Source: Leucoraja erinacea (Eukaryota). From it: a stretch of DNA of 64,000 bases. The stretch spans positions 11,160,001-11,224,000 of the forward strand of contig NC_073408.1 in NCBI RefSeq assembly GCF_028641065.1. The letters are read 5' to 3'. Numbering within the stretch: the stretch's first letter is position 1; every line of letters starts with the position of its first letter. The notes under the pieces are model-generated. The model made no database searches. It was given only the letters and a program-made list of their open reading frames with translations, and was not told the origin of the DNA. The position numbers and the translations under genes are program-made. Below, in pieces: positions 6,961 to 64,000 of the stretch.

Positions 6961-7100
6961 AAGGTAGACAAAAGTGCTGGAGAAACTCTGCAGATGCGGC
7001 AGCATCTATGGAGCGAAGGAAATAGGCAACGTTGCCTATTTCCTTCGCTCCATAGATGCTGCCGCACCCACTGAGTTTCTCCAGCACTTTTGTCTACCTT
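6961..7100. repeat. 140-bp fold-back palindrome made of two Penelope terminal-repeat halves
   Basis: 70-bp arms, no spacer, centred on CAAC|GTTG at 7030/7031. Confidence 0.9.
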
Positions 7101-7533
7101 GTATTATGTCTAGTCTTTCCGCTGACTGGATAGCACACAACAAAAATGTTTTTCACTGTACCTCAGTACACGTGACAATAAACTAAACCAAACTACTCAT
7201 AGGTTAGATGTAGGTACTAAAGCTTCCTCCACACCGATGCATCAAACTCTTCCATGGCTCTTCTGCACTGGTCAAACTACAACAGTAAAGCTCTCTTTAC
7301 TCAATCCCATTAAACAGTCCCAGATAGGTGTATAGGAAGGAACTGCAGATGCTGGTTTACACTGAAGATGGACAAAATGCAAGAGTAATACAGCGGGACA
7401 GGCAGCATCTCTGGAGAAAAGGAATAGGTGACGTTTCAGGTTGAGACCCATCGTCAGATTTAAACCAGCATCTATCTGCAATTCCTTCATACACATCTTT
7501 ATTATTTGAGTGCACAGTGAAGGCAAATCCAAC

Positions 7534-7662
7534 CTTTGGCAGCTGCTCCTCTTTGCTTGGCAAACCAGTAGACAAGCCCAGCCACCAGGAGAGTGAAGAA
7601 CAGATCGCCGCAGATGATACCGATGACCAACCCTGTGTTGAGTTCAATGCAGCTTTCACAAA
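7534..7662 (-). CDS. CD3E: CD3 epsilon stalk and transmembrane exon (VCESCIELNTGLVIGIICGDLFFTLLVAGLVYWFAKQRGAAAK)
   Basis: CD3-defining CxxCxE stalk, acidic Asp within the TM helix, cttcccccacag acceptor, 129 nt phase 1-1. The donor G|GTTGGA is weak. Confidence 0.93.
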
Positions 7663-8684
7663 CTGTGGGGGAAGGAGAAGCAATCCAGCATTCAGAACAT
7701 GCAAAGTACAAATACAAATGGTGCCTCATGTTAGCAGATTTCAACAACACCTCAGATATGTAGAATCTCACGACACTGACACCGCAGAAAAATAGCACCT
7801 GGCATCTGGTCTCTGGAGTTGATGTCCAATTCCACACATCCACATGTCATCGAGCTTACCTTCACGTTATGGTTCCCACGTGCATCAACACCATCACTCG
7901 GCTGAGTACAGAGCGAGGGAAACAAGATGTCATAGGCAGAGTGGGGAATTGGTCAACGGAGATGAGTGAGGTAAATTAATAGAGGCTGGTTGTGACTGAG
8001 GATTAAATTGTGAATTTGTTCCTTTTATCAAGTCCCTTAAACTGAACTAACACCAGGAGACACTGGAAATAGACAGAAAGCACTGGAGTAGCTCAACTGG
8101 TCCGGTTTCTGGAGAACATAGATAAGTGATGTTTCAGGTTGGGACACTTCTTCAGACCCTTCTTCAGAAGAGTCTCAACCTGAAAAGTCACCTGTCCGTG
8201 TTGCCTGGCCTGCTGTGTTACTCCAGCACTATCTTTGTAAACCACTATCCGCAGTTCCTTGTTTCTACAGACACTGGAAATAGTCTGTGAGTATTGCAGT
8301 TCTTTCTATTTTTATTTCAGATTTCCAAATTCTTTATTTATTTATGTATTTATTTATTTTTATTGGAGGGGGGTAAAAATTACAGTACATCTGATGTATG
8401 GCATTACATTTCCCCCCATTTTGTTTTTTATAAATAATAATAATAATAATAACAAAATAACCCGAACCCACCCTCCCTAAACACCCCTTGGCAGCTAATA
8501 TTTTCACAATACAAATATATCACAAAATCAAATGCACATTTTAACAATAATAAAGTCACAAAACAGAATAAAGGTGGCTCCCCACTTACTATCAAGTGCC
8601 CTCAGTCAATAGATAGTTGCTTTAACTACTATAAATTCAAATTCACACATGCACTGACTACACCGCCCAACACGGACTTCCATC

Positions 8685-9788: not shown

Positions 9789-12050
9789 CTGTGGAAAGAG
9801 AAAATAACAATGACCAGAACACAAGATTTATAGTCCTTGATCTCCCAATAAAATTAACATTTCATTTTTTTCAGCTACATTAATTTCTATTTCTACTGTG
9901 CCACCTGTAGAGGTTTAAGGATGGGGTACAGCGTGGGTTCGGATTCTGTCAGCTTGGGTGCATATTGGATGGGGTGCTGTCAAGGTGAGCCTGCTTTTGG
10001 GACTGAGCTGCTGCGTTGGGTGGCGTGTTTTTGGTGGCGTGTGTTGGGTGGCGTGCGTTGGTTGGCATGTATTGGTTGGGGGCGTGTGTTGGTTGGTGTG
10101 TTTCAGGACTGGGTCGACCTCGATACGTATTGAGCTCGGGAGAGGGAATAAGCCTGAGGGGCTTAGCTACAACCACTATAACCCTCCAGGGATTGACTTG
10201 AAGAAACACAACACATTATCTAAATCTTTGACACCTTTGGGAGAGGAAATGTAAAATATACAAAATACGTTAACAAAATGTTGCCGCTCAGTAAACTGCC
10301 ATGAAGTTTCTTGTTCAAATTGTCAAAAGATAAAGTCATAGTCAAACATCACTGTAACAGGCCCTTTGGCCCAACTCATCCAACCAGACCATGATGCCCC
10401 ATCCCATTTGCTCACATTTGGCTCAACTCCTTCTAAATCGTTCCTGTCCATCCAAAAGATATTTGTATTTCGAATATTTTCAGAAAAGAAATGCTAATAC
10501 CTAAACATCCTTCAGAGTTCAAAATCAAAAGTGCTTGAATGTTATGGAAGCCAATAAGAATTCTCGTGGATTCATGAGCACAGGAAGAGGTACCTCTGGA
10601 GTATGGCCACCTATAGTTATTGGTGGACAAATGATCTGCTGTTTTATTATCTTTGCAATAACAGAAAAATAAGTTCTCAATTATATTTTCAATTAAATAT
10701 TTTTGAATAAATGGATATCAATTTTGGAATATACAAACCAAAATGATTAGATCCATAAATTCTGCCTATTAATAAAAGCTTCAGGGACAAGTGAAACAGA
10801 TTCAATGACTTCGGCAAAGAATCAGGGGGTTATGAGGAAAAACATCTGTACACGGAGAGTAGTTTGATCAAGAGCATTCTGCCTGTGGGCACAGTGAAAA
10901 CAGAATCAAATAGCCAAATGGTCATTTGTCCAAAGAGCAAGAAGTCATTCTTGTCAGCAGCCAATTGCCATTACGTTGGGATTAAAGGGTCGGCAGCTTA
11001 GAAGGCAACTGCTTTCCCCGCTAATCTTTTTAATGTCTTCTCAACTCTGGTCTACTCGCCTTCTACCACAGCTCTGTAAAACCCATGCTTATTTTTTTTA
11101 TCTAATGTCCTCCAAGATTTGTTGTTGCTAAATATGGACAGTGGGGCAACTCTCAGCTCCCCCATATGCTGGAGGAGGCAATTTTAACCCAAGTCTTTAC
11201 AGGTTGGCGGAGAAAGCCCATTTCTCACCAACTTTCCACGGTAATCTACTTCCCTATATGCCCATTAACTGCCTCCAGATTCTAGCACTCCGCTACACAC
11301 TACGGACAATCTAATGCAAACATTTAATCCACTAACCTGCATGTCTTTGGGATGTGGGAGGAAACCACAGCACTGTACGGTCCCATGGAGAACGTGCAGA
11401 CCAGGATCGTAATGGAATGGAAATTTTAGCAGGGGTTGGCCATTCGGCCATTCAAGATGATCTTGCTTTCTCTGACCCCAGCCTCATCTTCTCTTCTGTG
11501 CCACTTTCCCAGATCCCTTAATACCTCTCAAAGGGAAGAATGGAGCTATGAGCTAGCAACATTACCACCTGCGCCACTTTGACATGGTGATGAGAGGGGA
11601 GCAGAAGCCTTGGCTTTGTGAAACAAAAGGATACAAAGTGTTGGAGTAACTCGGCAGGTCAGGCAGCATCTCTAGAGGACATGGATAGGTGACATTTCTG
11701 GATGGGACCCTTCTTATTTCAGGTCCCTAAGAAGCAGGGTCCCAACCAAAAACGTCACCTATTCATAATCTACAGTGATGCTACCCGGCCCACTCAATTA
11801 CTCCAGCATTTTCTGTCCTTTTGTGTAAACCAGCATCTGCAGTATCAACGCCTTGGTTTTGTATTTCGCTGGAAAGATGGTCTGACTGTTGGTGGAACAC
11901 TCCCTCGAGGCAGATACCTCCAGTATTTGTCCGCCATGTGGCTTCACCCCACAACCCCTCTCTCGAAGCTTAAATATCACTTAACAAAGTACATCGGTAA
12001 CCCTGCACAGACTTTGCCTACACCTCGTGTGCAATGAAAGTTGAACTCAC

Positions 12051-17705: not shown

Positions 17706-18829
17706 ACTGAGGGGCAACTTACAGAGGAAAATTAACCTACCGGGCCACACAGCCATTGGGATATGGGGGGAAACAGGGAAACCTCATGGTCACAGGGAGA
17801 GCGTGCAAACTTCACACAGACAGAAGCTAAGGTCAGGATTGAAACCCAGGTCTCCAATGCTGTGAGGCAGCAGCTCTACTGACTGCTCCACTGTGTCACC
17901 CCCTAGGTTACTTAAACAGAAATAAAATACAATAAATCATAAATAATATGTGAATGGGTGGGAGTGGACCACCTGGCCCTTCCAGCCTGGCCTATCATTC
18001 ATTAGGAAGGCTGATTGATTTTGTTGTTTGATCAATTGATCAATTGATCGATTGTTGATCTGATTGTGAGATGAACTCTACCTTTGGTAACCTTTCGCCC
18101 TCTTGCCTGTCAGGACCAGTTCTCGCTCTCCTTTTAATAACACACTCCCATGTCAATGCAGGTTGCAACATCTGTCCTTCGATCCCTTCCCATCCAACTG
18201 GGCAAACCCTACTCCCACTGTATTTATAGGCTGAAAAGTAAGTGCATGTCGCAACACGCAGCAGGTAAGTCAGCATCAGTGGAGAGAGATGAATGGAATT
18301 AGTGTTACAGGTTTAGGACCTTTCATTAGATGCAGTTTCCTCTGCGAAGACAATTCAGAATAATGGTTTCATTGCCATTTCTTTATTTCCCCCAATGCAA
18401 CTTCAGACAGTAAGAGACCACATTAAGTTTACTGATCTTTTCCTTTCATGAGTCAAGAGTCAAGTGTTTTATAGTCAATATGAGAGCGGCACAGTCATGC
18501 AGCAGTAGAGTTGTTGCTTCACAGTGCCTGACACCCGGGTTTGATCCTGACAATGGGTGCTGTCTGTACAGAGTTTGCACGTTCTCCCTGTGACCGCGTG
18601 GGTTTTCTCCGAGTGCTCCAGTTTCCCCCCACACTGCAAAGACATACAGCTTTGTAGGTTGTTTGGCTTCTGTTAATTGTAAATTGTCCCTAGTGTGTAT
18701 GATAGTGCTAGTGTATGGGGTGATCGCTGGTCGGCATGGACTCGGTGGCCGAAGGATACATACAATGTATCTATTAAGTATAAATGTCCCATATGAACAA
18801 TGACATTTTGACTTCCATTCTGTTAACAC

Positions 18830-19190
18830 CAAGAGAAATCAACATTGATACCGCTGGGTTGTAAGCTGCCCAAGCAAAATATGAGGTGCTGTTCCTCCAA
18901 TTTACGTTTGGCCTCAATCTGAAAGTGGAGGAGGCCCAGGAAAGAAAGGTCAGTGTGGGAATGGGAAGGGGATTTAACGTGATTGGCAACCGGGACATCA
19001 TGTAGGCCAAGGTGGACTGAGCGAAGGTGTTCAGCGAAACGATCGCCCAGTCTGTGCTTGTTCTCGTTTCTCATTCCCCTGACTCTCAGTCTGAAGAAGG
19101 GTCTCGACCCGAAATGTCGCCCATTCCTTCTCTCTAGCGATGCTGCCTATCCTGCTGAGTTACTCCAGCTTTTTGTGTCAATCTACTATT
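18830..19190. mobile_element. Penelope-like fragment (GIY-YIG tail on -, inverted terminal repeat on +)
   Basis: RLGDRFAEHLRSV...KLEEQHLIFCLGSLQPSGIN on -, joined to a + strand CTGAAGAAGGGTCTCGACCCGAAA repeat. Confidence 0.82.
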
Positions 19191-20149
19191 TTATTTAGTT
19201 AGCTATGGGTAGATCAAGTTTCCTGTTGGGTTTTCAAAAAAAGTATATATGTTATAAACCCTGCGCTAATTATAAATCATAGTCATACATTATAATGTCA
19301 TTTTCCCAATCTACCACAGACAAGTCATTCCTCATAACTTTGTGGTTTGTTTTTGTTTCCATTTAAGGTCTCAGTTTTAGAATTAAGTCGCTACAACATG
19401 CCCTCTGGCGCCGCGCTGTGGCGATCTCCAGGCGCAGTCTCCTGCGGTGAGACCAGGTGGTGTTGGATTTAGGACAGTCCTTTGGGGAATAGCTGAGGGC
19501 CCCACTATAAGCGTCTCTCTGAGGAAAATGCACTCGCCCTGTTGCATTCGTGTTGCTGTTGGAAGGAAACTACACACTGATATCCAAAATAGACATGTTT
19601 ATCCACCACAAAAAAGGAACATTGCACTCTAATGTTTGGCCAAGTAATTGACCTACAATTGTCGGTGTGAATTGGATGTCGCGTTTATAATGGTGGCCAC
19701 TGTTCAGTATCTCAGTGATGCAAAGCGCTGGAAAAGTCCCGAAATCCTGACAGTAGCTCCATAAATGCAAGTGCAATTATATATATATATTGCACACACA
19801 CACACACATACTTTATTCACATGTATTTTTTTCGTTTCAAGCGCTTCACCGCCTCCTTTCTGAAGAAGGGTCTCGACCCGAAAAGTCACCCATACCTTTT
19901 TCTCCAGGGGTGCTGCCTGGAGCATTTTGTCTCTTATCTTTGCAATAAACCAGCATCTGCATTTCTTTGTTTCTATACTTTAAAAACAAAACACGGTTGC
20001 CTGATTCACATTTGCCAGTCGTGTAAATATATGCCACACAACATCACATTTCCAAACAAAATATTGTGAATTTGGGGCATCCTCGAAAACTGCCATGGAG
20101 CTAAAAAAAAAACTTTCTTGGAACTGCTCGGCGAGGATCGGTGTGGCTG

Positions 20150-20314: not shown

Positions 20315-20366
20315 ATGTGGCCCCATATCTTGTCGTGGACTGTGTTAGCGGCGGCGATACTCGCAG
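20315..20366 (+). CDS. MPZL2: MPZL2 (EVA1) exon 1, signal peptide MWPHILSWTVLAAAILA-G
   Basis: ATG, hydrophobic leader, CAG|GTAAGC phase-1 donor, CpG-rich context; in frame with the exon at 29609. Confidence 0.82.
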
Positions 20367-22811
20367 GTAAGCCGTCTCGGACTGGGACACGATTGCTCGG
20401 GAAATCCTTCCACAGCCCCCCGTCCCCTCAATCCCTGACAATTTCAATCAATGACCATCAAATACGTTCTTTAAAACGTGGTGTGGCAGGTTGTAGAGTA
20501 GGTTTCGCTGGCTGGGATGTAGGGCGTATGAGTTATTTTGTTTTAAAGGTTCAATGCTTCGTCTTGTTATTACACGTTTGGAATACCAAGCATCAAACCC
20601 CGTTTCACTTAAACTCTGTCCCACTCACTACCAGATATAAACTTGCAGTGATTAGGGTTGCAGAATATTGGACTGTGTGGAAGGCATTGAAATCTCGGCC
20701 GTACAGATTGTACAAACCTGTCCGCAGCATTCCATAGGGACAACCATCTCTGGTCGGTTCTTACATACAATAGACTGGAGCCAGCCTGCTTTACATTGTG
20801 GGTCGGCCATGATGCAAGTTAATGGCAGGACAGGTTGAATGGCCTTTTTCAAACCCCCTTGTGTTTTAATTACTCCTGGATGTGAGGACTTGGCTGAGTT
20901 AAAGTGGAGTGTAGAACAAACAAAACAAAAACACCCCACCCCCACACACACCCCACCATCACACACCCCCATCCCCACACACACACACAAAATTGCTGAA
21001 ACCACTCCGCATTTGTGGGAACTTGAGAATCAGTTAATGTTTCAGATCCGAAGTTGAAGACACAGTGAATTGCAGATGCTGGGATCGTGAGCAAAACACA
21101 AAGTGCTGGAGTAACTCAGCGGGTCACTCAGTCCGTAGAAGGGTCCTGACCCAAAACTGCGCTCCCCCCTTCCCTCCTGAGACGCCGTCTGACCCGCTGA
21201 GTTACTCCATTCAGCGCTTTGTGTTTTAATGGGGACATTGAAGCCGTGTGGTGTGGTGGGGTCGGGCTATTGTGGCGAGTCATTGTGGAGATGGGTGAAT
21301 GAAGAACAGAGCCACCGTGCTGATATTGAACTGTGTGAGATGGAGCGAACCGGGAAGCGTTGGATTAACAGCGGGCCAGGCAGCATCTTTGGAGGGTAAT
21401 ACCTTGTGATTTACTGCCGAAGAGTCCAGCTGGACAATTTTACACTGGACATTTTTTTACATTTACCAAGCCAATTAACCTACAAACTTGCACGTCTTTG
21501 GAGTGTGGGAGGAAACCGAAGTTCTCGGATAAAACCCACACAGATCACGAGGAGAACGTACAAACTCCGTACAGACAGCACCCGTAGTCGGGATCGAACC
21601 CGGCTCTCCGGCGCTGCATTTTTGCTGTAAGGCAGCAACTCTACCGCTGCGCCGGATATACAATGTTTCCGGTTGGAACTCTTCTTCTGACTGATTGAGT
21701 TGACAGGAACAGATGGTGAGATTTATTTGGGACACTGCCAATGGGTGGAGATGGTGCAGTTAGCCTGTGGTGAGTGAGTGTGATGAGTGGGAACACAGGC
21801 TGAAGCCTCACCCTGTAGAGCAATGAATATGAGGATTCCAACCCCTAATCTCATCACAGCCTATGACTAACACTGTTGTAAAACCAGAAATGCCTGAATG
21901 ACTCCATGCTCCGATGAAAAGTTCTCACACCTGGAGTTTTTTGTTCCACCGATGCTGCCTGATCTGCTGTAATGTTCTGCCACTTACACTTTTTATTTCA
22001 GACTTCCAGCATCTGCACAATGTAAGCATTTTATCTCAGTGTTTTTAGTTTAGAGATACAGCCCACTGAGTCCGCACAGTCCAGCGATCCCCGCACATTA
22101 ACACTATCCGACACATACTTGGGACAATTTACACTTGTACCAAAGCCAATTAACCCACATACCTGTACGTCTTTGAAGTGTGGGAGGAAACCGAAGATCT
22201 TGGAGGAAACCCAATGGGATCGATGGGAGAATGTATAAACTCCATAAAGACAGCACCCGTAGTCAGGATCGAACCCAGCAATTACATGCAAGCAATTAAA
22301 TGTATGTAAGGCAGGAACTCTACCACTGCTCCACCATCCTGCACACGGATTTTGAATGCACCCAAATCTCTGGTGGGACCTCAAACCCTGAGCAGGGAAG
22401 GACGACCAGACCAGTACTCCAGCTGCGGAGAGGATGTGTGAGTTCCAAATAAAGTGAGGGTGTGATTCCATTTTAATGTGATCCCAGCAGTAGAATGGTC
22501 TATTGTCAGGGTCAACAACAGTGTTGTTTAATAGGCTAACCAGTGCACTAACCTTCTGGTTGTAGAATCATAGAGTCTTACAGTGTGGAAACAGGCCCTT
22601 CAGCCCAACTTGCCCACACCAGCCAACATGTCCCATTCACACTAGTCCCACCTGCTTGCTTTTGCCCCATATCCCTCTAAACCTGCCCTATCCATGCACC
22701 TGTCTAAAACATTCTTAGTTGATAAAAAGTAAGTATAGAGAGATACAGCATGAAAACAGGCCCTTCGACCCACCAAGTCCGTGCTGACCATCAACCATCT
22801 ATTTACACCAA

Positions 22812-27100: not shown

Positions 27101-29608
27101 TTCCCCAGGGATTCTGCCTGACCTGCTGATTTACTCCAGCACTTTGTATTGTTTAAATGAGAACAATACTGCAGAGTGTGGTTTATAGGAGCAGGGTTGC
27201 GAGAGAACCATATGGCCAAGTGTAAATTGGGGAGTTCCAGGGGAAAAAAAACGTATCAAATCACAATTACTCTTTGATCAAGTTGATCATTGCTAAATAA
27301 CATGATCAGTGAATGCGATGCATTTTAGTGAAGAACTGCAGTTAATATTAAGGCATTTGGAATCCTTGGGTTATAGAAGAAAATACACTTCAGGAAGAAG
27401 TGGGAATCAATTGAAGTGACAAGGGACTGGTAATCATGCTGTTGAGGGTTGGGGATGAAGGAGGATCTGTCATTGATGAGGAAAACTGGGTGGTTCAAAA
27501 GAGGAAACAAAAATATTGTGATGTGATGGAGGACAATAGACAATAGGTGCAGGAGTAGGCCATTCGGCCCTTCGAGCCAGCACCACCATTCAATGTGATC
27601 ATGGCTGATCATCCCCAATCAGTAGTCCACTCCTGCCTTCTCTCCATATCCCCTGACTCCGTTATCTTTAAGAGCCCTATCGAGCTCTCTCTTGAAAGTA
27701 TCCAGGTTCGATCCTGACTACGGGTGTTGGCTGTACGGAGTTTGTTCATTCTCCCCGTAACCTGTGTGGGTTTTTTCCAAGATCTCCGGTGTCCTCCCAC
27801 ACTCCAAAGACGTACAGGTTGTAGGTTAATTGACTTTGGTAAAATTGTAAATTGTCCCTCGTGTGTGTAGGGTGGTGATAATGTGCGGGGATTGCTGGTC
27901 GGCGCAGACTCAGTGGACCAAAGGGCCTGTTTCCGCGCTGTATCTCTAAACTAAACTAAACTAAAAACACCACAATGCTGAAAATTAAACTTCCATGATT
28001 CACTTGGATTTGACTTGATAGTTCTTGCCACAAAAAAAAAGTTTCGAAAAGACAAAGTTGAAATAAATTGGGCTGCTGTGTTAAATTGAACTGTTTTCAC
28101 ATTATTTTTCACATTCTTGAGACCTGGGCAGTGTCGTTGGGGAAATATTTATTACCCAACCTGAATTGTTTAGGGGGAGAGAGGCCAGTCTGTCAACTCA
28201 TGTTCTGAAGAAGGATCTCGACCTGAAATGTCATTCATTCCTTCTCTCCAGAGATGCTGCCTGTCCCGCTGAGTTACTCTAGCTTTTTGTTTCGATCATG
28301 TTCACTCGAATCACTGCCAGCGCTGTACCCAGTCCTGTTTAACAAGTGTGTTTTTGTGTAGTGGTGGAGTTGCAATGAGTTATTAATCACAGTCTTTCCA
28401 TCTCTCATTAATAGTTTGTGTATCAACAGCTGTTAGTCTGGATAAGTCTCAGTTCAGGGAGCAGCTTGCAAACTGGGGTCTTGCCTGTTGGTAGCTGAAG
28501 TCAAGGGGATGATGCTGGGTTTGGATCAGGGCCCTGGCTGCTCTCTCTGCACTTGAAGCCGTGCAAGGAAATGTCCCCACTGTCATGACCAGTCAATATC
28601 ACAATGGCACATGGTCTGCTGATTATCTCACTGCTGTTTATGGGCCTTACAATGAGGAACTTGATAAGAATTTCATTGTTCTGCTTTGGTACCTATGACA
28701 ATTAAACACTTGTTTCTTGAAGAGAGTCATAGAGTGCGGAAACAGGCCCAAGTTGCCCATGCCAACCAACATGCCCCAGCTGCACTAGTCCCACCTACTT
28801 GCGTTTGGCCCTTATTCCTCTCATCTTATCCGATCTCTATACTAGTCTAAAAGCTTTTTTTAACTTTGTGACGGTACCTGCCTCAACGACCTTCTTCGGC
28901 AGCTCGTTCCATATACCTACACCTTGCACTTCTCTGTATTAAACACCCTCAACCATTCCTCAGCCCGCCTGCCCAACCAATCAAGACCCTGCTGCAATTT
29001 TTGACAAGCATCTTCACAGCCAACAATACCACCAACGTTAGCGTGTCATGGAATAGAACGTTATTCTGTCAGAATATTTGCTTTCGTGCAGTTTTTCGAA
29101 GTGGGAATTAAAGAGTAGGAGACAGCAATGTGGGAGAGCAGAAATAAGTCAGAACAGGGGACTTTATTATGTTTCTAAATAGTGCCTGTGGTTAGTTGCG
29201 TGATGGAGTTTGTGACTGGGCTACGGGCTATATTTGGAGATAGACTAAGGGAGGCTCCTTCCAGCTGCGCAGCACCTGCTAAATGGGGGAAGCATCATGT
29301 CCTCTGAAGAAATGCCCAATGTACCCTGTGTAGCAAAATGGTTACTTCTGCATAAATGATATGCCTGTGTTTAAAAATGTCAAGGAAGTATTGACGGCAG
29401 TCGAGATTTGAGCCATGTTTCTGTGCAAAGTTCAGTAAAGTTAATATTCACACAGTGCATTAACAGTGTGTAAATGTTGGGCACACAGGCTCTGTGCAGT
29501 TGTACAATCAGTAACCCTCACCCTGTTTCAATAGTGACCTTATACGCAGCGAGCATTTGCTAAACTTGCTGAATGGTGATGAGGGGCTGTGATTTGTTTC
29601 CCATGCAG

Positions 29609-29775
29609 GTATTGGCAATGTTGCTGGGGTCCACGTCTACACAGGAGGCAATGTTGAGGCTCGGAACGGCACAGAGTACCGGCTCAAGTGCACCTTCACA
29701 TCCACCCATCCTGTCGGGAAAAAGACCTCAGTCACTTGGTCCTTCCGACCCGAAAACGGTGGCACTGAGGAAGTT
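29609..29775 (+). CDS. MPZL2: MPZL2 exon 2, first half of V-set Ig domain (VHVYTGGNVEARNGTEYRLKCTFTSTHPVGKKTSVTWSFRPENGGTEEV)
   Basis: 167 nt, atgcag acceptor and GTGAGT donor; NGT..RLKCTF..VG...VTW.FRP resembles human MPZL2 as I recall it. Confidence 0.93.
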
Positions 29776-30935
29776 GTGAGTATCAGGAGGGGAGTTCCAG
29801 CATGTTGGAGAGAGGTGGGAATGTTCCCCTCAGGCTGGGAATGTTAACAATTTAACATTGCAAGCCTAGTGCTAATAAAAAGATGTCCTACATACAAGTC
29901 CAACGCCGATTTTCTGGCAACTGGTGATCTGATGCTCCCCCCCCCCCCCCCCCCCCCCCTTTAATCCGGACGAAACCTCCCCCCCCCCCCGCCGCAGAAT
30001 TGCCCCAGAAAATGTGCCCATGTTGGGTGAAGGGGTTTGATAATGACCTCATCGGGACTTCCGCACCGATCAGCAGGTCACATTTGCCCCCTGAGGAAGC
30101 CTGAGCTGCGGAACTCCGGTCTGGCCAGAGCCAGCAGATCCATTCCCATGGCCGACTTTGCGGGCCGGCATCTCCCAAGGTCGTGACCTCTGTTGGTCCG
30201 GCAAAACGGAGAATCCAGAAAGGCTCTGGAGCCAAGAGTACCGGAGAATCGGAGGTGGGCCTGTAATTCAAGTGTCAACAAGTGTCTCTATTCCACACAG
30301 CAGCTCAGACACATTTACCTGCAAAATACCCTATGCCCCATGAAATTCCAAGGAGGTTTTATCAACACATATACCTTGTTGTGGATAAATCCTCCCTCGG
30401 GACACCCACTTGAACAGACATTTAATTTAGCTGTGTTTATAGTTTTAAACACTCAGTACATTAAATGCACTTCATCGGTTGATATGAACCTTGGGAGACC
30501 CTGAGGTTATGAAAAAGTGCTATAGAAATGTAGATATCGTCTGTAAGACCCTCAGGTCCGTGTGTGTCCCAAAGAACACAGGAACGTGGAATTCTCATGA
30601 GAGACCCAGAACAGTTCTCCCCTGCAGGCTGTGGGTCAACGGCACTGAGTGCAGACAAGGACAAAAATCCTGGGAATGGGCAAGGAAGGGACCTGTCTCC
30701 TGACTTCCAGCCGGCGATCCCTGGTCCTTGTTGTGAATAGCAAGACGGCACATAGTCGAGCCACTGTGCTCATGTCTAGCCATACACAGAGGGTGTGAAC
30801 TTCTGCAGCGGGATATCCAGAAGCTGAGGAATTCTATCCACATTGACAACCATCTGAGAAGAGATAGGGCATAAAGGGGATATACTGTCTCCGACTACAT
30901 TCTATCTCTGTCCTGCCCCCTCCCCTGACATCAGT

Positions 30936-30963
30936 CTGAAGAAGGGTCTCGACCCGAAACGTC
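30936..30963 (+). ncRNA. minimal hammerhead-ribozyme-like motif in a Penelope-derived repeat (best + strand copy)
   Basis: CTGAAGA core, GGGTC-TC-GACCC helix II, GAAA, C-GTC cleavage triplet. Helix I pairing is weak and activity is unproven. Confidence 0.55.
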
Positions 30964-31698
30964 ACCCATTCCTTCTCTCCAGAGATGCTGCCTCACCCGC
31001 TGAGTAACTCCAACATTTTGTGTCTACCAAGGGATATACTAGATGGCTCTAGGGTGGGAAAACCATTGTTACATGGGGAAATAATGTTCAAGTCCTGGAA
31101 TGGAAGGAAACAACAGACACATTCAAAATTTTATGAACAGGTTTGAAGGGAAAAATAAGTTTTAATTTATTCATTTTCTGAGAATATTCTCTGGCAAGGC
31201 CAGCATTGAAGTTAAACCACATGGAGACAGGTCCGTTGGCCCAACTCATGCACTCCGAACAAAACATCTTCAAGAGATTGTCCTATTTACCTGCATTTGG
31301 TCGATATCCCTCCAAATCTTTCCAATCCACAAACCAATTGAAATATTTGTTCATGTTGAATTCTACCCACCCCTACCACTTCCTCTGGCAGCTTGTTCCA
31401 TACACACACCATTCTCTATGTCGAAAACCTGCCTCTTGGGCCCCCTTTAAATCTTGCCCCTCTCACCTTATATTACGCCCTCTATTTTTCGACTCAGCTA
31501 CCTAACTGTGAGAATCCACCATCCATGTCTCTCATGATTTTATAAATCATTATAAGATTATCACTCAACTTTCTTTGGACCAGACGAAATAATATCAACC
31601 TATTTAGTCTGTCCACACAACTCGAGCAAAGCTTGCTCTCCACTGTGCTGGTGGACAGGCTGCCCGCTGAGTGCATAACCTTCCCTTTCTCTCCGTAG

Positions 31699-31909
31699 GT
31701 CATGTATTATCAAGAGCAACCATATGCATCTGCAGGGGGACGGTTTAAGGGACGGGTGGTGTGGTCTGGGAACATTTGGAAAAAAGATGTATCGATTACC
31801 ATCATGGACCTACGCTTCACGGACAATGGGACGTTCATGTGCTCCGTGCTCAATCCCCCTGACGTGGACCTGATCGTTGGTGAAGTCCGACTTGCTGTTG
31901 TGGAAAAAG
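31699..31909 (+). CDS. MPZL2: MPZL2 exon 3, second half of V-set domain (VMYY...GRFKGRVVWSG...DNGTFMCSVLNPPDV...GEVRLAVVEK)
   Basis: 211 nt, phase 0-1; myelin-P0-family DNGTFxCxVxNPPD motif. Confidence 0.95.
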
Positions 31910-43535: not shown

Positions 43536-43620
43536 TAAAGTAAAACACCTTACTGTGTTGTGAAGTAAAAGCAGCATGTCCTCCATGCTGATTCCCCCAA
43601 TCAACATCATCAAAATATAA

Positions 43621-44224
43621 GGTACACAAAAAAGCTGGAGAAACTCAGCGGGTGCAGCAGCATCTATGGAGCGAAGGAAATAGGCAACGTTTCGGGCCGA
43701 AACCCTTCTTCAGACTGATGGGGTGTGGGGGGGGTGAGGAGAAGAAAGGAAAAAGGAGGAGGAGGAACCCCAGGGCTGAGTGATGGGAGGAGATAGCCCA
43801 AGGGCTGAGGAAGAGGAGGAGACAGCAAGGGCTAACAAAATGGGAGAATTCAATGTTCATGCCCCAAGGATGCAGACTTCCCAAGCGGACTATGAGGTGC
43901 TGTTCCTCCAATTTCCGGTGTTGCTCACTCTGGCCATGGAGGAGACCCAGGACAGAGAGGTCGGATACGGAATGGGAGGGGGAGTTGAAGTGCTGAGCCA
44001 CCGGGAGGTCAGGTTGGTTATTGCGGACCGAGCGGAGGTGTTCGGCGAAACGATCGCCAAGCCTCCGCTGGGTCTCACCGATGTACATCAGCTGACATCT
44101 AGAGCAGCGGATGCAATAGATAAGGTTGGAGGAGATGCAGGTGAACCTCTGTCGCACCTGGAACGACTGCTTGGGTCCTTGAATGGAGTCGAGGGGGGGA
44201 AGGTAAAGGGACAAGTGTTGCAAA
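43621..44224 (-). mobile_element. Penelope-like element 3' part (GIY-YIG endonuclease plus terminal repeat with hammerhead-like motif)
   Basis: NLIYCIRCSRCQLMYIGETQRRLGDRFAEH...EEQHLI..LGSLHP.GMN; downstream CTGAAGA-agggtttcggccc-GAAACGTT. Confidence 0.9.
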
Positions 44225-44599
44225 ATCTCATCAAAATATACATTGGTTTCATCATTATAATGTTTGTGGGACCTTGCTGTGCAGGAGGATAGGGCCACAG
44301 TGAACAGCCCTGTCTGCTATCCAGAGTGGGAAGTGGTTCGGCACAGCTGGGGTCACTAACTTGGGGCTTGAGGGAGCAGTGCTGGCCAGCGTGTCTCTAT
44401 CTACCTTGGGAGTAGGAGTTTGGGAACAGTGGAGAGGGAAGGGAAGCCACTGCACTTTCAGGAGCTGCTGGTGGAGGTTTTTGGAGAGTTTGTTTAGGGG
44501 GTGGGGTCATAAGTGATAGGAGTAGAGTTAGGCCATTCGGCCCATCAAGTCTACTCCGCCATTTAATCACGGCTGGTCTATCTCTCGCTCCTGCCTTCT

Positions 44600-45513: not shown

Positions 45514-45671
45514 GTTCTGCTACTATTGAAGTTTCTTTGAAACCAACTGTTCAAGGTTTCATTGGAGAAGATATACAACTGAGTTGTAAGTTCAGATCCT
45601 CCTCTCCCATCACACAGCGTCTGACAGTGGACTGGTCTTTCCGGCCAGCAAAAAGCGGATCAAAACATGGT
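45514..45671 (+). CDS. MPZL3: MPZL3 exon 2 (SATIEVSLKPTVQGFIGEDIQLSCKFRSSSPITQRLTVDWSFRP...)
   Basis: 158 nt, phase 1-0; resembles human VRGYVGEKIKLKCTFKS...LTIDWTYRP as I recall it. Confidence 0.93.
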
Positions 45672-46090: not shown

Positions 46091-47069
46091 CATTTCCTTA
46101 GTTAACAACAATGCTACCTTTTTTTTGAGAATGTATTAACGTAACCTGAAACACTGGGATGTTTGCTCCTAATGTGTTTGATTGTATCTTTGAGGTCTTT
46201 TGAAGAAATGTCTATATTTCACCATCTTCCAGTAAGAAATGTGATGAATGTGTGGTAATTATTTGCAACATGTCTCCCATGTTGAGCATGTGTCTAATTC
46301 TAACATTCTCATGTAAGGCACTGAGAACCCAGAACTTTATCCAGAAAAGTGCTCTGGATCTACTGAACGTTCCCAAAGAGTGTGATGTGAAGCAGGTTCT
46401 GTTGTGGCTTTTGAGAGGGAATTGGATATAACACATGGCGAACATAATGTCGTAAACCTGCAGAGAAAGGACAGTGGGGGAGTTGGGGGGAGGGGAAGTA
46501 ATGAACTCGCATTGAGATCTGCAACGGACACTGGGCAAATTGGCTTCGTCCTGTGCCATTACTATTCTATGATATATGATTTCAAGTCTTTTCGAACCGC
46601 AAGAGGCTGCTGTTACAATGGCAAAGCTTTTCATCAGTGGTGAAGCAATTCAGCACAACCTGTGCGAGACTATATAAATGCAAATTCATCGTTAATAATG
46701 CTAATCTGCTGAGTCGCTGCATTCTGCATCTCATCCACTGTGTGATTTTTTGTGTGTGTGTGTCACCAGCTGGCTGTGGTATTTGGCATTAAGCTCCATC
46801 CTTTGATGTTTTTTTGTTAGTGTTTGTTTGATTGCTCTTCCTTTTGTGTAATTGGCTCCTTCCTTCCTTCCTGAGGCCAGTTGTTGTATGACCACGTTGA
46901 TGGTGGTCTTTATCAGAAGCTTCCTCTGCCCAGCTTGGAGACAGTGAGCCGCAGACTTGCTCGGTCTGCCCCTCTCCACACTGACGTCACATCTGCGTTG
47001 ATGAAGGAGTGATGTTTTTTTCCCGTTTATCTCTTGTCTCAACAAATAGTGCTGCCATATATGGAAGAT

Positions 47070-47545
47070 AACTTCTTCAACCGCAAGAAATGCAACACCT
47101 GTCCCTTCACCTCCCCCCTCGACTCCATTCAAGGACCCAAGCAGTCGTTCCAGGTGCGACAGAGGTTCACCTGTATCTCCTCCAACCTCATCTACTGCAT
47201 CCGCTGCTCTAGATGTCAGCTGGTCTACATCGGTGAGACTAAGCGGAGGTTGGGCGATCGTTTCGCCGAACACCTCCGCTCGGTCCACAAGAACCTACCT
47301 GACCTCCCGGTGGCTCAGCACTTCAACTCCCCCTCCCATTCCCAATCCGACCTCTCTGTCCTGGGTCTCCTCCATTGCCAGAGTGAGCAACACTGGAAAT
47401 TGGAGGAACAGCACCTCATATTTCGCTTGGGGAGTCTGCATCCTGCGGGCATGAACATCGAATTCTCCCAATTTTGTTAGCCCTTGCTGTCTCCTCCCCT
47501 TCCTCAGCCCTCGGGCTGTCTCCTCCCATCCCCCAGCCCTCGGGC
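47070..47545 (+). mobile_element. Penelope-like GIY-YIG fragment
   Basis: CNTCP...LIYCIRCSRCQLVYIGETKRRLGDRFAEH; nearly the same sequence as the 43621-44224 copy. Confidence 0.9.
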
Positions 47546-47684
47546 TGTGTACCTATGGCAGATAACTGTTTGATAATTGAGGAGGAGAGAGGCTGATGGC
47601 AGTGGGATGCAGCAGAGACTCGCTGTTTTCACGGAGTAAAGGCTTGAGCTCTGGCTCGTATCCAGGACCTTCTGACACAACATT

Positions 47685-51500: not shown

Positions 51501-53661
51501 AATGCTGGAGTAACTATGCTGCTGTTCTGTTTGTTTCCCCTATTAAAGCCTCGCATCATTTTATAAATAAATACATTTTATAAAATGATTTTATAAACTG
51601 AACCTTTTCCCGGGATGTAAATAAATAATACGGTGCTAGAGGGTGTAGCTTTAAAGTGAAAGGAGGAAATTACAAAGGAGATGTGCAAGGCCAGTTTCTT
51701 TACACAGAGGCTGGTGAGTGCCTGGTATGTGCTGGTAGTGGCGGCAGAAATGATAGTGGCATTAAAAGACTTTTGGATAGAGCAAGGACTGGAGAGATGT
51801 GGATTGTGTGCATGCATAAGATTTAGTCTGGGCATCATGCTGGGCAGACATTGTGGACCGAAGTGCCTGCCCTGTGCTGTACTGTTCTATGAGTGGCTTT
51901 TTATTCCACTTGTTTAGTTTAGAGATACAGCACGGAAACAGGCCCTTCGGCCCAACGAGTCCACACAAACCAGCGATCTTCACACACTAGCACACCACAC
52001 TGCACACACTAGGGACAATTTACAATTTTACCAAGCCCATTGGCCTACAAACGTGTACATCTGTGGAGTGCGGGAGGAAACTGAAGCATCCGGAGAAACC
52101 CACGCAAGTCACGCACGGGGAGCGTGTACAAACTCCATACAGACAGCACCCGTAGTCAGGATAGAAACTGGGTCTCTGACACTGTAAGGCAGCAACTCTA
52201 CCCATTGCGCCACCGAGCCACCCTTACTTAAGTGCTTAATCATGATTAATGTGGATACTTGATACATTTTTTTGTTAGAATAATTTTTAAAGGTGCACCT
52301 TCTAAGGATCCATTCCAGGATAACATTTGTCCTGGGACAATCCTTACCCTCCTCGTCCCTCCATCAGCACCCAGATCCCACACATCCATTCACGAGTGGC
52401 TTCCTATGAGGTTCATCCATTCACCTCGCCTGCTTGGCGCCAATCAAATGAAACTTGCACTCAATGGCAGAACAGAACCCATCCGATGGGAATGGGGAAA
52501 GGACATGAAGCCCACCCACACCATTCATGGACCTCTCCTACATAATGCTGATTGAGAAGGTATCATATGCCAACAGGGATGAGTATGTGCTGAGACTCGA
52601 GTTTTCTGTCAAATAGTTGAACCCTGCAACCCGTGTCCCATTGTGAAGCCATCAACATATCAGCAATCCATTATTATTTAACAGCTAGTTTTAGATTGCA
52701 ATTAATTGTGACTTCATCTCAAAATAATTTGCAATTAGCTCTTTTAATCAATTGAGGACCCCATCTGTTACATTGTTTCAAGTTTGCTGTAACCATCAAA
52801 ATCACGTTCTTAAACAGGTTCATCCCGATCAATATTCCTGATTTGTGCCCCTTCTTATTTATTTTTTAATATTTGGTGATACCATGCAATTTTGTAGATT
52901 AAAAAAAAACTGAGCAGGGGCCCTATTTGTTGAGGTGCACTATGTTTTTCAGTCGAGCATTCTTGTCCGTCAATGACTGCCCTGCTCTGTCCTCTCCTGT
53001 AATGCACTGCCCTGCCATACATTGCCACTGCTCTAGAGAGCTGTCTCCCTCATCATTGCGTGGAGCATTGGGTTAATGTTCAATGAACTGGAGACAGTGG
53101 CAGTGCATTTCTCCCGTGTGGCACATGCGCCACCCAGTGGTGGTATTTTCTATTGCAGTTCGGAGTGCAAGGTTCTGAGTTCACAACGTTAACCTCTAGG
53201 TCTTAAGGAACGAACTGCAGGTGCTGGTTTAAACCAAAGATAGGCATAAAAGACTGGAGTAACTCAGCGAGTCAGACAGCATCTCTGGAGAAAAGGACTA
53301 GGTGATGTTTCTCAGAGATGCTGTCTGACCCGCTGAGTTACTCAGGCCTTTTATGTCTATCTTCGATTGACATCTCAGTGTTGGAGTAACTCAATACACA
53401 TGGATAGGTGCCATTTTCGGCCATGACCCTTCGCCACTGCGTTTGTGATGGGAGGTCACTATTGGACCCGTATCTCTGGCGCTGTGAGGCCGCAGCTTTA
53501 CCAGCTGTGCCATCGTGCCGCACCTGGTTGCCCAAGGTCGGCACTGGAATGCTGTAGGCAGCCAGCGGTGGCATCACCATCATGGGAGACGATTGCTCTG
53601 TGGCTCGGCGGTGGTGGGTTGAACTGAACCTTCGTCACGTTGCCACTCTCTCCCTCCACAG

Positions 53662-53872
53662 ATCCTGTACTACCACTCCGCGGTGTTCCCTGCCGCACAA
53701 GGCCCATTGAAGGATCGAGTCCTGTGGAACGGGAATGTTATGAACGGCAATGCTTCCATCGTCGTGAAGAATCTGACACTGGTCGACAATGGGACGTTCA
53801 GTTGTGTGGTCCAGAACCCGCCGGATCTCAGCAGTTTTGTGCCGACTACTGTACTCACCGTCATCAAGAGAG
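53662..53872 (+). CDS. MPZL3: MPZL3 exon 3 (ILYYHSAVFP...KDRVLWNGNV...DNGTFSCVVQNPPD...PTTVLTVIKR)
   Basis: 211 nt, the same length as MPZL2 exon 3; P0-family motif; canonical splice sites. Confidence 0.95.
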
Positions 53873-54776
53873 GTGAGCAACTCGGAGGGAGTGGGAGGGG
53901 AAACATTTTGTAGCTGCTTGTTAAATGTTGAGGGTATGATCCCTACAAACTCCGTACGGGCAGCAACACCAGATCGAACACGGGTCTTTTTAGTCCGCTG
54001 CCGTAAATCAACTTATTAATAAATTGAGCTGGGAAGTGGGAAAAAAACTTTATAAAAGAAACACAATGTACTGGGGTAACTCAGCAGATCAGGCAGCATC
54101 CCTGGAGAACATGGATAGGTGATGTATCAGGTCGGGGCCCTTCTTCAGACGGGGAGTGTAGCTCACCAACATCAGTCTGAAGAAGGGTCTCAACCCAAAA
54201 CGTCACCCATTCCTTCTCTCCAGAGATGCTGCCTGTCCCGCTGAGTTACTCCGGCATTTTGTGTCTACCTTCAATAACAGAGGATGCATGTTAAGGAAAA
54301 TAGTTTCAAAATGAAATCAAAAAGTACACGAGGAGAAAAAGAATAAAAAAACTGAAAACCTGTGACTTAGTAGTTTAGTTTACTTTAGAGAAACAGCGTG
54401 GGAAGTGGCCCTTCAGCCCACCGGGTCCGTACTGACCAGCAATCCCCGCACATTGTCACTATCCTACACACACTGGGGACAATTTACAATTTTGCCGATG
54501 CCAATTAACCTATCAACCTGTAGGTCTTTGTAGTGTTGGAGGAAACCAGAGCACCTGGAGAAAACCCACGCAGGTTACATGGAGAATGTACAAACTCAGT
54601 ACATACAGCACCCGTAGTTAGGATTGAACCCGGGTCTCTGGCGCTGTATGGCAGCAACTCTACCGCTGCGCACCATAGAAGGAATGATAGGAGGTGTACA
54701 CTTTCCGTTTGGGCTGAATGGCCTGTTTCTGCGCAGTGTGTTCAGTGTAACTTCAGCCTTGCTTCTCTCTGCACAG

Positions 54777-54930: not shown

Positions 54931-55074
54931 GTAGGTACAGAAACGGCACCGGGGCTTGGTGTCGAGAACCGGCTGTTTGCCGTTATTGAGCAAACCGGCA
55001 ACTTCCCTTCCAAAGCCCAGAGCACTTTCTGACCAGCAAGTTGCTGTAACAAATCAGGTCATACACTGCATTAA

Positions 55075-55890
55075 ACTGCCCTACACTGCCCTACACTGCC
55101 CTACACTACACTACACTGCATTATACTACACTACACTGCATTACACTACACTCCACTGCATTACACTGCACTGTACTGCACTACACTGCACTACACTGCA
55201 CTACACTACACTGCATTATACTACACTCCACTGCATTACACTACACTCCACTGCATTACACTGCACTGTACTGCACTACACTGTACTACACTACACTGCC
55301 CTACACTGTACTACACTACACTACACTACACTACACTACACTACACTACACTGCACTGTACTACACTACACTGTACTACACTACACTACACTGCACACTG
55401 TACCACACTACACTGCATTAAACTGCCCTACACTGCCCTACACTACACTACACTACACTACACTACACTACACTACACTACACTGCACTGTACTACACTA
55501 CACTGCACAGCATTACACTACACTACACTGTACTACACTGCACTACACTACACTGTACTGAACTACACTACACTACACTGCCCTACACTACACTACACTA
55601 CACTACACTACACTACACTGCATTACACTGCATTACACTGCATTACACTGCATTACACTGCACTACACTACACTGCACTACACTACACTACATTGCACTG
55701 TACTACACTACACTACACTGCAACTCACTACACAACACTGCACTACACTGTACTACACTACACTACATTGTACTGTACTGCACTACATTGCACTGCACTA
55801 CACTACACTGCACTACACTACACTGCACTACACTACACTGCACAGCACTACACTGCCCTACACTGCCCTACACTGCACTACACTGCACTG
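55075..55890. repeat. (CACTA/CACTG)n pentanucleotide array in MPZL3 intron 4
   Basis: Directly visible; it explains the LHYTT ORFs in the track. Confidence 0.97.
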
Positions 55891-56160
55891 TCTCGGGGAT
55901 CTGGGGTGGAGGGTACTACACAAAGGAGTCCCATGCAAACTTTCTATCCCGGTCCACACACTCGCCAGCCGCCTGCCTCTTTTGCTGGCTGGATGAGTCT
56001 GTGTTCCATGTATACATGGAGTGTGTGAGGTTGCGGCCCCTGTTCCAATATCTGAAGGGGTTACTCCTTGCCTTCTGGCTGCACTTCACACCTACTATTC
56101 TCATCTTTGGACACCCTGTGTGCAGGGGAGAGGATAGTGGTGAAGATGTCCTGGTTGGAC
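55891..56160 (+). mobile_element. Tx1/L1-clade ORF2 C-terminal zinc-knuckle fragment
   Basis: GDLGWRVLH...CLFCWLDESVFHVYMEC (CCHC)...LIFG. Confidence 0.75.
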
Positions 56161-63545: not shown

Positions 63546-64000
63546 AGGGTGATTTCACCAAAGGTCAAATGAGCGTAGATCCCCCCTCACGTGACCGAAA
63601 ATTTTAACTGGAGGACATCTCTCAGTTTGGTACATGTAAGTGAATAGGGAAACACGCACTTTCCCACCCGTTAAAAACATGGAAAATGGCCGATTTTTGA
63701 GCTGAAATTTTCTGTGCTAGTCGGGGTGACCGTGAAGCACAGCGACCTAAATTTTCAGGCAAAAAAAAAGATAGAAAGTAAGGTAATTATAAGAGGGAAC
63801 TGAAGGTAGAAAGCGGCGGAAGTGAACAGCTGACATTTGCCGTGGTGATTTTAAGATCCAAAATATCGGGAATTATCGCGTTTGCTCGCTGAATTTCATC
63901 AAAAGTAAGGCATTATTAACTTAGTTTTGATGAAATTCAGCGAGCAAACGCGATAATTCCCGATATTTTGGATCTTAAAATCTCCACGGCAAATGTCTGC
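63546..64000. mobile_element. large fold-back non-autonomous DNA element, cut off by the window end
   Basis: 63829-63909 is a near-perfect reverse complement of 63920-64000; CpG-rich, so probably young. The left boundary is approximate. Confidence 0.7.

What the first reader, a model, noticed from the sequence alone, without database searches (positions are those of the whole stretch)
30931..30970. Dispersed minimal hammerhead-ribozyme-like motifs carried by Penelope-derived short repeats
Seen: the motif CTGAAGA-a-GGGTC(tc)GACCC-GAAA-C-GTC/GTT recurs throughout the window. It is intact or nearly so at 30936(+), 19091(+), 19860(+), 28205(+) and 43686-43713(-), and degenerate at about 770, 7430, 8130, 8165, 21660, 43441, 54120, 54177, 59225, 59325, 61561-61610 and 62238. 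The 43686 copy sits directly 3' of a GIY-YIG ORF, and its helix II differs (GGGTTTCGGCCC) yet still pairs. Known: CUGANGA / helix II / GAAA / NUH is the hammerhead core, and Penelope-like elements carry minimal type I hammerheads with a vestigial palindromic helix III thought to work as dimers. Inference: this genome may host an abundant non-autonomous, retrozyme-like family. The copies at 28205 and 30936 lie in sense within MPZL2 introns. Caveat: helix I has only about 2 evident pairs, and several copies show CpG decay of the core.
Basis: partly seen in the sequence, partly recalled or inferred. Interest (0 to 1): 0.7.

Follow-up and report, generated by a model that had tools for sequence, protein, structure and literature searches.

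The report
Penelope retrotransposon ends with minimal hammerheads
The repeat is the end piece of a very abundant Penelope-type jumping gene, in what is likely a skate or ray genome; it carries an already described kind of minimal hammerhead (self-cutting RNA) motif, and the scattered copies were likely made from uncut RNA and are predicted not to cut the RNA of the gene they sit in.

Summary
The motif is real: 37 repeat copies in the window, and 81,555 intact-core matches genome-wide against 2 in the control. Only 30936(+) and 43713(-) meet the strict descriptor. It is the minimal type I hammerhead in the terminal repeat (pLTR) of an autonomous, Neptune-like Penelope element (RT + zinc-finger linker + GIY-YIG; 3.7-3.9-kb tandem units). 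The short copies are 5'-truncated insertions of that end, often flanked by target-site duplications. They are not retrozymes. Most begin at the ribozyme's 5' edge, not at its cut site, so their RNA templates were likely uncut. Copies decay neutrally. Helix II shows only one-sided wobble changes, helix I has 2 pairs, and the hammerhead fold is not the predicted monomer fold. This scan found the same family many times before, on this and other genomes. One lead remains: rare arrays of pLTR/ORF-start units, most flanked as a whole by one target-site duplication and some with intact hammerheads in tandem, resume either at the 5' edge (10 of 13 junctions) or just at the predicted cut site (5 of 12 loci). 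This may record occasional cleavage in vivo. Known kind; low interest.

The parts
30887..31028 (+). 142-bp 5'-truncated insertion of the 3' end (pLTR) of a Neptune-like Penelope element; starts 49 nt upstream of the hammerhead core and ends at the family's short 3' end
30934..30965 (+). Minimal type I hammerhead: helix I 5' strand 30934-35; CUGANGA 30936-42; extra A 30943; 4-bp helix II with tetraloop 30944-55; GAAA 30956-59; palindromic helix III remnant 30959-62; predicted cut between 30963 and 30964; helix I 3' strand 30964-65
   Evidence: layout compared with PMC4209133
30877..30886 (.). Left target-site duplication (10 exact bases)
31031..31040 (.). Right target-site duplication
43620..44227 (-). 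608-bp 5'-truncated Penelope copy of the youngest subfamily: GIY-YIG end, 3' UTR and intact hammerhead (core starts at 43713); 13-bp TSD at 43607-43619 and 44228-44240
19086..19180 (+). Short pLTR copy; palindrome altered by CpG decay; joined head-to-head to an inverted GIY-YIG fragment (18823-19080)
19859..19920 (+). Short pLTR copy; helix III palindrome broken
28204..28292 (+). Short pLTR copy in intron 1 of the MPZL-family gene; helix II mismatch; starts at the hammerhead's 5' edge
54059..54266 (.). Head-to-head pair of decayed pLTR copies. Similar pairs: 6968-7093, 8072-8233, 11631-11816, 21095-21225, 53244-53357, 59183-59410, 61502-61672
20315..20366 (+). Predicted exon 1 (signal peptide) of the host P0/MPZL-family gene
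29609..29775 (+). Exon 2 of the host gene (V-set Ig domain, first half)
31699..31909 (+). Exon 3 of the host gene (V-set Ig domain, second half; closest solved structures MPZL1 and P0)

Best explanation
The motif is the minimal type I hammerhead in the terminal repeat (pLTR) of an autonomous Penelope-like retrotransposon, likely of the Neptune clade, and the dispersed short repeats, 30936 included, are 5'-truncated insertions of that end, likely made by the element's own reverse transcriptase from mostly uncut RNA and predicted to be inactive as ribozymes where they sit. Shown: the motif lies about 115-200 nt behind the GIY-YIG frame and 164 nt before the ORF start of tandem units; copies share two 3' ends (about +93 and +130 from the first core base) and many carry 8-16-bp TSDs; most 5' ends fall at -6 to +12; copies decay neutrally. 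Inferred: reverse transcription starts internally at +93 or +130 (as shown in vitro for the anole element, PMC11167929) and runs to an RNA 5' end near -4 (an initiator-like TCAGT), which gives 95- or 135-bp stubs. In the live element the ribozyme would cut only as a dimer or with the element's protein. Purifying selection acts on the master lineages, not on the copies.
For: 29 of 30 loci found with the window's GIY-YIG piece show the hammerhead just downstream (for L038 the row printed is a second copy in the locus; the exception is the window's own 47013 copy). Tandem units with two hammerhead pLTRs 3,726-3,948 bp apart flank an RT + CX4CXXC + GIY-YIG frame (L083, L091, L096). Subfamily of 30936: shared upstream sequence extends 9-950 bp in 29 of 30 loci, and 19 of 30 have the PLE ORF directly upstream. 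In 1.2 Mb of regularly spaced stretches: 639 hits; 3' ends peak at +83..+96 and +128..+131, the 30-40-bp 'tail' of PLEs; 223 of 598 have an inverted partner directly upstream; TSD of 8 nt or more in 20 of 68 short copies against 0.74 in shuffled pairs; 325 of 598 5' ends lie at -12..+12 and 3 of 598 at +28; among 190 copies anchored on the young subfamily's downstream motif, 123 end at -6..+12, 1 at -59..-13 and 8 at +28..+32, no more than the neighbouring bins. Among 6 subfamily consensuses, 0 of 11 core positions vary against 17 of 56 flank positions (p 0.03), and the hammerhead's variable sites are loop II, N17 and wobble changes. Per-copy mismatch: core 6.2%, lineage-invariant flank 8.0%, not significant. 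The hammerhead pairs have probability about 0 in the monomer ensemble; a forced double hammerhead is -6 to -7 kcal/mol against -27 for the best dimer fold.
Against: Cleavage was not measured. Helix I (2 bp) and helix II (4 bp) are shorter than the typical min-HHR (4-5 and 7-8 bp), and there is no two-sided covariation, so the structure rests on motif order and lineage conservation. The raw per-copy comparison showed the core better conserved than the flank (A/T columns 5.5% vs 9.9%); that gap lost significance once columns varying between subfamilies were removed. Only 32 of 338 core-spanning copies keep the GIY-YIG end, so a share of the stubs could have been copied from transcribed stubs (SINE-like); this was not excluded. 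The RNA start near -4 is inferred from DNA ends only; the RNA lays showed no pile of read starts or ends. No RT tree was built, so Neptune rests on the linker motif.
Confidence: 0.85

Rival explanations
1. The stubs are a non-autonomous SINE-like family: a 95-135-bp copy keeps an internal promoter and the RT start site, is transcribed from about -4, and is moved in trans by the PLE protein.
For: Sharp 5' edge at -6..+1; about 90% of core-spanning copies lack ORF sequence; the unit is abundant in RNA, 11,611 of 12.9 million reads in X24; pLTRs suffice for movement in trans in rotifer PLEs (PMC3846280).
Against: The subfamilies that could be checked also occur with the ORF directly upstream. A pLTR-initiated transcript of a tandem element would give the same edge. 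The anole enzyme needed ORF sequence downstream of the start site (PMC11167929), which stubs lack. RNA abundance is expected from passive transcription of close to a million copies.
Confidence: 0.2
2. The dispersed copies are a retrozyme family that spreads through hammerhead-made circular RNAs.
For: 81,555 intact cores; rare head-to-tail arrays with intact hammerheads 196-285 bp apart exist (L283, L284, L286, L287).
Against: Dispersed copies are not tandem (3 pairs within 1 kb among 60 strict hits). Their ends are fixed by the PLE's start sites, not by the cut site or by circular permutation. Array junctions differ from locus to locus and leave the ORF at +193..+290, not at a second cut site.
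Confidence: 0.05
3. The motif is only a protein-binding or promoter sequence of the pLTR that resembles a hammerhead and never cleaves.
For: The hammerhead fold is not predicted; 2-bp helix I; no two-sided covariation; the region downstream is conserved too; 8 of 9 Xenopus dimers did not cleave in vitro.
Against: All core bases, the extra base after A9, the G10.1-C11.1 pair and the palindrome match the published min-HHR. Variation between lineages avoids the core. The anole PLE hammerhead cleaves with protein and loses activity with core mutants.
Confidence: 0.15

Closest known systems
Minimal type I hammerheads (min-HHR) in pLTRs of metazoan PLEs: Xena, Poseidon and Neptune of fishes; about 4,000 in coelacanth and 9,000 in Xenopus (Cervera and de la Pena 2014, PMC4209133)
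   Same: Full core, extra base between 9 and 10.1, G10.1-C11.1, palindromic 15.2-16.2 with no loop 3, position in the pLTR, mostly single dispersed copies from truncated elements.
   Different: Helix I has 2 bp and helix II 4 bp (published: 4-5 and 7-8; the D. virilis variant has a 2-bp helix I). The intact-core count is about ten times higher, with a different descriptor. No cartilaginous fish was named in the parts read or in supplement file 2; file 1 could not be searched.
Neptune-clade EN+ Penelope-like elements (Craig et al. 2021, 10.1101/2021.04.23.441226; passages read)
   Same: RT with DKG motif, CX2-5CXXC linker, C-terminal GIY-YIG, partial tandems, inverted 5'-truncated partner, 30-40-bp optional tail, heavy 5' truncation.
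   Different: Clade not tested by a tree; Nematis shares the linker. Most copies here are under 140 bp, with a sharp 5' edge.
Poseidon element of Anolis (PAc; Frangieh et al. 2024, PMC11167929)
   Same: Two internal RT start points that define the tail, downstream of the hammerhead; uncut RNA as the main template; no RNA reads ending at the cut site.
   Different: Other clade; in PAc the ORF starts inside helix II, here 164 nt after the first core base.
Non-LTR retrozymes (Cervera and de la Pena 2020, PMC7229834; Li et al. 2026, 10.64898/2026.07.22.740005)
   Same: pLTR-derived; the rare arrays here have 196-285-bp units with a hammerhead in consecutive units.
   Different: The dispersed copies are single and not tandem. 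The hammerhead is minimal, not canonical. Most of the arrays examined are bounded by one TSD, so they arose during insertion and not by later unequal crossover, the route that Li et al. discuss.

Membership tests
min-HHR of PLEs | CUGANGA, GAAA and UH core in type I order | tested here: met
   (intact at 30936 and 43713)
min-HHR of PLEs | Extra base between positions 9 and 10.1; G10.1-C11.1 pair | tested here: met
   definition
min-HHR of PLEs | No or vestigial helix III with palindromic 15.2-16.2 | tested here: met
   a CpG site, so it decays in copies
min-HHR of PLEs | Typical stem sizes (helix I 4-5 bp, helix II 7-8 bp) | tested here: not met
   2 bp and 4 bp. These are typical, not required, sizes: a 2-bp helix I is published for D. 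virilis
min-HHR of PLEs | Compensatory changes in the stems | tested here: inconclusive
   0 of 8 pairs change on both sides in 20 copies; only wobble changes between subfamilies and in three other organisms' runs; the divergence sampled is low
min-HHR of PLEs | Located in the pLTR of a PLE | tested here: met
min-HHR of PLEs | Self-cleavage as a dimer or with protein help | not testable with these tools
   folding does not favour the active form
EN+ PLE, Neptune clade | RT followed by a C-terminal GIY-YIG domain | tested here: met
   (RVT_1 E 1.5e-6 and GIY-YIG E 6e-3 in L096, both under the curated cut-offs)
EN+ PLE, Neptune clade | CX2-5CXXC linker and DKG motif | tested here: met
   definition
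EN+ PLE, Neptune clade | Partial tandems, inverted 5' copies, 30-40-bp tail | tested here: met
EN+ PLE, Neptune clade | Placement in an RT tree | not tested
   no reference PLE proteins were fetched
Non-LTR retrozyme | Tandem units, each with a complete hammerhead | tested here: not met
   dispersed copies: 3 pairs within 1 kb among 60 strict hits; met only by rare arrays outside the window
Non-LTR retrozyme | Non-coding family separate from the autonomous element | tested here: not met
   continuous with the PLE ORF
Non-LTR retrozyme | Circular RNA made by ribozyme cleavage | not testable with these tools
   no RNase R or end-capture data; the lays cannot separate circles from transcribed arrays

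The most novel reading that the evidence does not exclude
The genome holds a fossil record of this minimal hammerhead cutting in the germline, and of how retrozyme-like arrays are born. In the youngest subfamily the Penelope enzyme starts at +93, runs to the RNA's 5' end, jumps back to the ORF start region (+193..+290) and repeats, laying 2-14 head-to-tail units inside one target-site duplication (13 of 16 such insertions). The resume points fall into two classes: -4..+1 (10 of 13 junctions; uncut RNA, units with an intact hammerhead) and +28..+31 (5 of 12 loci; RNA cut at the predicted site, units without the core). Vertebrate non-LTR retrozymes would then be one-step by-products of PLE reverse transcription.
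Probability: 0.3. Interest if true: 0.6.

Novelty: new member of a known kind. Interest (0 to 1): 0.25.

Why it matters
As filed, it is one more lineage with a described motif, notable only for its number (81,555 intact cores; about 0.87 million end pieces, extrapolated). There is no sign of an effect on the host gene. What could matter is mechanism. Whether PLE hammerheads cut in vivo is open: none of the papers read shows it, and the anole study found no RNA ends at the cut site. How tandem retrozymes arise from pLTRs is also open. This very young, very abundant family offers many insertion junctions on which both questions can be tested by computation, and a tandem element that can be assayed like the anole one.

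Tried and rejected
Rfam scan: no hammerhead family at E up to 10, only hairpin-driven miRNA matches. Peak of dispersed 5' ends at the cut site: not found. Intron in the pLTR as in D. virilis (a pyrimidine tract and AG precede helix I): no spliced-type copy among 135 with the ORF end upstream, no matching joint among those listed, and the donor dinucleotide is not conserved; left unresolved. Selection on individual copies: the apparent excess conservation of the core lost significance after removing columns that vary between subfamilies. Two-sided covariation: none. Run search: no RNA holder listed on record; three raw RNA runs came as additions. The lays showed no pile of read starts or ends; these libraries are not made to capture 5'-OH or cyclic-phosphate ends, so this is weak. 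RNA evidence for the host gene's exons and for the intronic copies is missing; the exon layout rests on sequence alone. Post-insertion unequal crossover as the origin of the arrays: disfavoured, because 13 of 16 insertions carry one TSD round the whole insert and one array mixes five junctions; the 14-unit array L282 itself has no TSD. A single covalent circle as the template of L282: disfavoured, because some units hold bases that the 177-bp unit lacks. Lunse et al. 2017 is not held and is known only through PMC6765202. No complex or structure prediction was run.

Full report
Coordinates written +n or -n count from the first base of CUGANGA (0). The predicted cut lies between +27 and +28.

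1. Observation. The motif is at 30936(+) and recurs: 12 matches with up to 3 mismatches against 0.00 expected. It is part of a ~98-nt unit with 37 copies in the window and none in reversed sequence. Genome-wide (2.19 Gb) the exact 30-mer occurs 11,482 times, and a descriptor with all core bases, G10.1-C11.1 and the palindrome occurs 81,555 times against 2 in the control. In 120 regularly spaced 10-kb stretches (1.2 Mb, richer in small chromosomes than the genome) there were 639 hits, or about 0.87 million genome-wide after scaling by the strict descriptor (1.17 million unscaled). In the window only 30936 and 43713 meet the strict descriptor; the other 'nearly intact' copies have a damaged palindrome or helix II. 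28205 and 30936 are in sense in introns 1 and 2 of a P0/MPZL-family gene; the label MPZL2 is recalled from synteny. That the animal is a skate or ray is inferred from recall and from earlier notes, not from a call.

2. What carries it. A search with the window's GIY-YIG piece gave 30 loci, and 29 show the hammerhead shortly behind the frame's end. Walking upstream led to RT + GIY-YIG frames and to tandem units with two hammerhead pLTRs 3,726-3,948 bp apart. The CX4CXXC linker and DKG motif fit Neptune as defined in Craig et al. (passages); no tree was built. The subfamily of copy 30936 behaves alike: in 30 loci found with its upstream motif, shared sequence reaches 9-950 bp upstream in 29, and the PLE ORF lies directly upstream in 19. 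Copy 30936 is a 142-bp insert between 10-bp repeats, and 43713 a 608-bp insert between 13-bp repeats. At least six subfamilies of 6-21% divergence are present.

3. Anatomy of the short copies. Of 639 hits, 605 had 600 bp of upstream sequence and 598 could be mapped. 3' ends cluster at +83..+96 and +128..+131, the optional tail of PLEs. 223 of 598 have an inverted partner directly upstream. 20 of 68 isolated short copies have a TSD of 8 nt or more against 0.74 in shuffled pairs. Only 32 of 338 core-spanning copies keep the GIY-YIG end. The 5' ends are not random: 325 of 598 lie at -12..+12. Among 190 copies anchored on the young subfamily's downstream motif (some belong to other subfamilies), 66 end at -6..+1, 57 at +2..+12, 1 at -59..-13 and 8 at +28..+32, that is 1.6 per base against 1.2 and 1.0 in the neighbouring bins. 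The templates therefore mostly contained the whole ribozyme, uncut. For older subfamilies the edge may be inflated, because their upstream sequence is less well represented in my references.

4. Is it a ribozyme? It has every listed hallmark of the min-HHR in Cervera and de la Pena (parts 1-2 of 4 read), but only 2 bp of helix I and 4 bp of helix II. Between six subfamily consensuses no core base varies (0 of 11 against 17 of 56 flank columns, p 0.03), and the variable sites inside the motif are loop II, N17 and U-A/U-G wobbles. The same sites vary in three other organisms' runs. Against: no pair changes on both sides; individual copies lose core bases about as fast as invariant flank bases (6.2% vs 8.0%, not significant); the hammerhead pairs have about zero probability in the monomer; and the double hammerhead is about 20 kcal/mol above the best dimer fold. 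This matches the low activity reported for min-HHRs and the protein dependence of the anole one (parts 1-2 of 4 read). The nearest same-strand partner of 30936 in the host pre-mRNA is the damaged 28205, 2.7 kb away, so cutting of the host transcript is unlikely (inference). The unit is abundant in RNA (0.09% of the reads read in X24), with coverage steps at the same edges as the DNA copies and no pile of read ends, as passive transcription would give.

5. Mechanism. Most likely (0.85): the element's RNA starts near -4, at an initiator-like TCAGT (inferred; internal TATA-less promoters are described for Penelope, passages). The RT starts inside the RNA at +93 or +130, as shown for the anole element, and most often yields a 95- or 135-bp cDNA that is inserted with a TSD, often with a fold-back partner. 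The ribozyme matters, if at all, in the master elements. A SINE-like contribution from transcribed stubs (0.2) is not excluded. The retrozyme reading of the dispersed copies fails its defining test: 3 same-strand pairs within 1 kb among 60 strict hits.

6. A lead outside the window. A search for the ORF start of the youngest subfamily (168 matches, 100 listed) showed head-to-tail arrays at 7 of the listed loci. Six were fetched and more single-junction inserts were mapped. Units run from the pLTR into the first 30-130 bases of the ORF and back. 13 of 16 such inserts have a TSD of 8 nt or more round the whole insert, against 1.7% of control pairs; L282, L284 and L256 do not. Several arrays hold intact hammerheads 196-285 bp apart and so meet the retrozyme definition of Li et al. 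(parts 1-3 of 5 read). Resume points, read by eye: 10 of 13 junctions at 12 loci fall at -4..+1. In the complementary search, 5 of 12 loci fall at +28..+31, 4 at +41/+42 at the edge of the anchor, and one each at +21, +35 and +39. P is 0.015 with all 12 loci, 0.048 if two identical junctions count once, and 0.002 if the four edge cases are dropped. The window width was chosen after seeing the data, microhomology was not modelled, and the fixed gap hides some junctions. Other arrays resume at -39 to -54 or further upstream. Hence probability 0.3.

7. What is known. Hammerheads in fish PLE pLTRs, and their dispersal as single truncated copies, are published. Five searches turned up no paper on this chondrichthyan family or on arrays made within one insertion; I saw only listings for most hits. 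Supplement file 1 of PMC4209133 could not be searched, and I did not see the supplements of the Li et al. preprint, which covers one chondrichthyan; either may list this family. PMC6765202, PMC7229834, PMC2377424 and PMC3846280 were read as passages only. This scan's earlier notes describe the same family, the 5' edge, the copy number, a small class at the cut site and a dimer; they are not independent support.

8. Verdict. A real motif, a new member of a known kind, interest 0.25.

Noticed in passing
L282, L283, L284, L285, L286, L287, L253 (G000 C1, C7, C9, C10, C15) and G000:C1295:504898-505814: Arrays of 2-14 pLTR/ORF-start units (174-290 bp), near-identical to the young element, most inside one TSD; some with intact hammerheads in tandem. 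One 209-bp junction recurs at two loci.
   Followed up: partly
window 47013-47560 (+): GIY-YIG end whose 3' UTR joins directly to the family's short 3' end, with the hammerhead region missing (row L011).
   Followed up: no
L049:3100-3300 and joints (L096 2219 to 2186-2189): 32-34-bp stutters of the helix II-to-cut-site segment that lack CUGA, seen in DNA and RNA.
   Followed up: no
L096:2062-2181; window 43714-43840: A long pyrimidine tract and AG end right before helix I, like the 3' splice site of the D. virilis Penelope intron; no spliced copy found (0 of 135).
   Followed up: partly
window 30931-30939: The nine bases spanning the 5' edge of the core form a near-palindrome that could sequester CUGA or prime fold-back; several head-to-head junctions lie there.
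   Followed up: partly
L096:2310-6010, L083, L087, L090: The young element's coding region appears as two overlapping frames around a proline-rich low-complexity stretch; a real frameshift or an assembly error, not resolved.
   Followed up: no
window 7445-7846 (-), 45520-45670 (+), 53700-53900 (+): Exons of a CD3-like chain (label recalled) and of a second P0/MPZL-family gene flank the host gene.
   Followed up: no
window 63849-63978: A perfect inverted repeat of about 120 bp (MITE-like), unrelated to the Penelope end.
   Followed up: no
window 54935-56030: Long tandem repeat of a short unit that gives several spurious open frames.
   Followed up: no
L096:1700-2300 in runs X22, X23: Single-cell libraries show about 4:1 strand bias over the element's 3' end; which strand is the RNA was not calibrated.
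   Followed up: no
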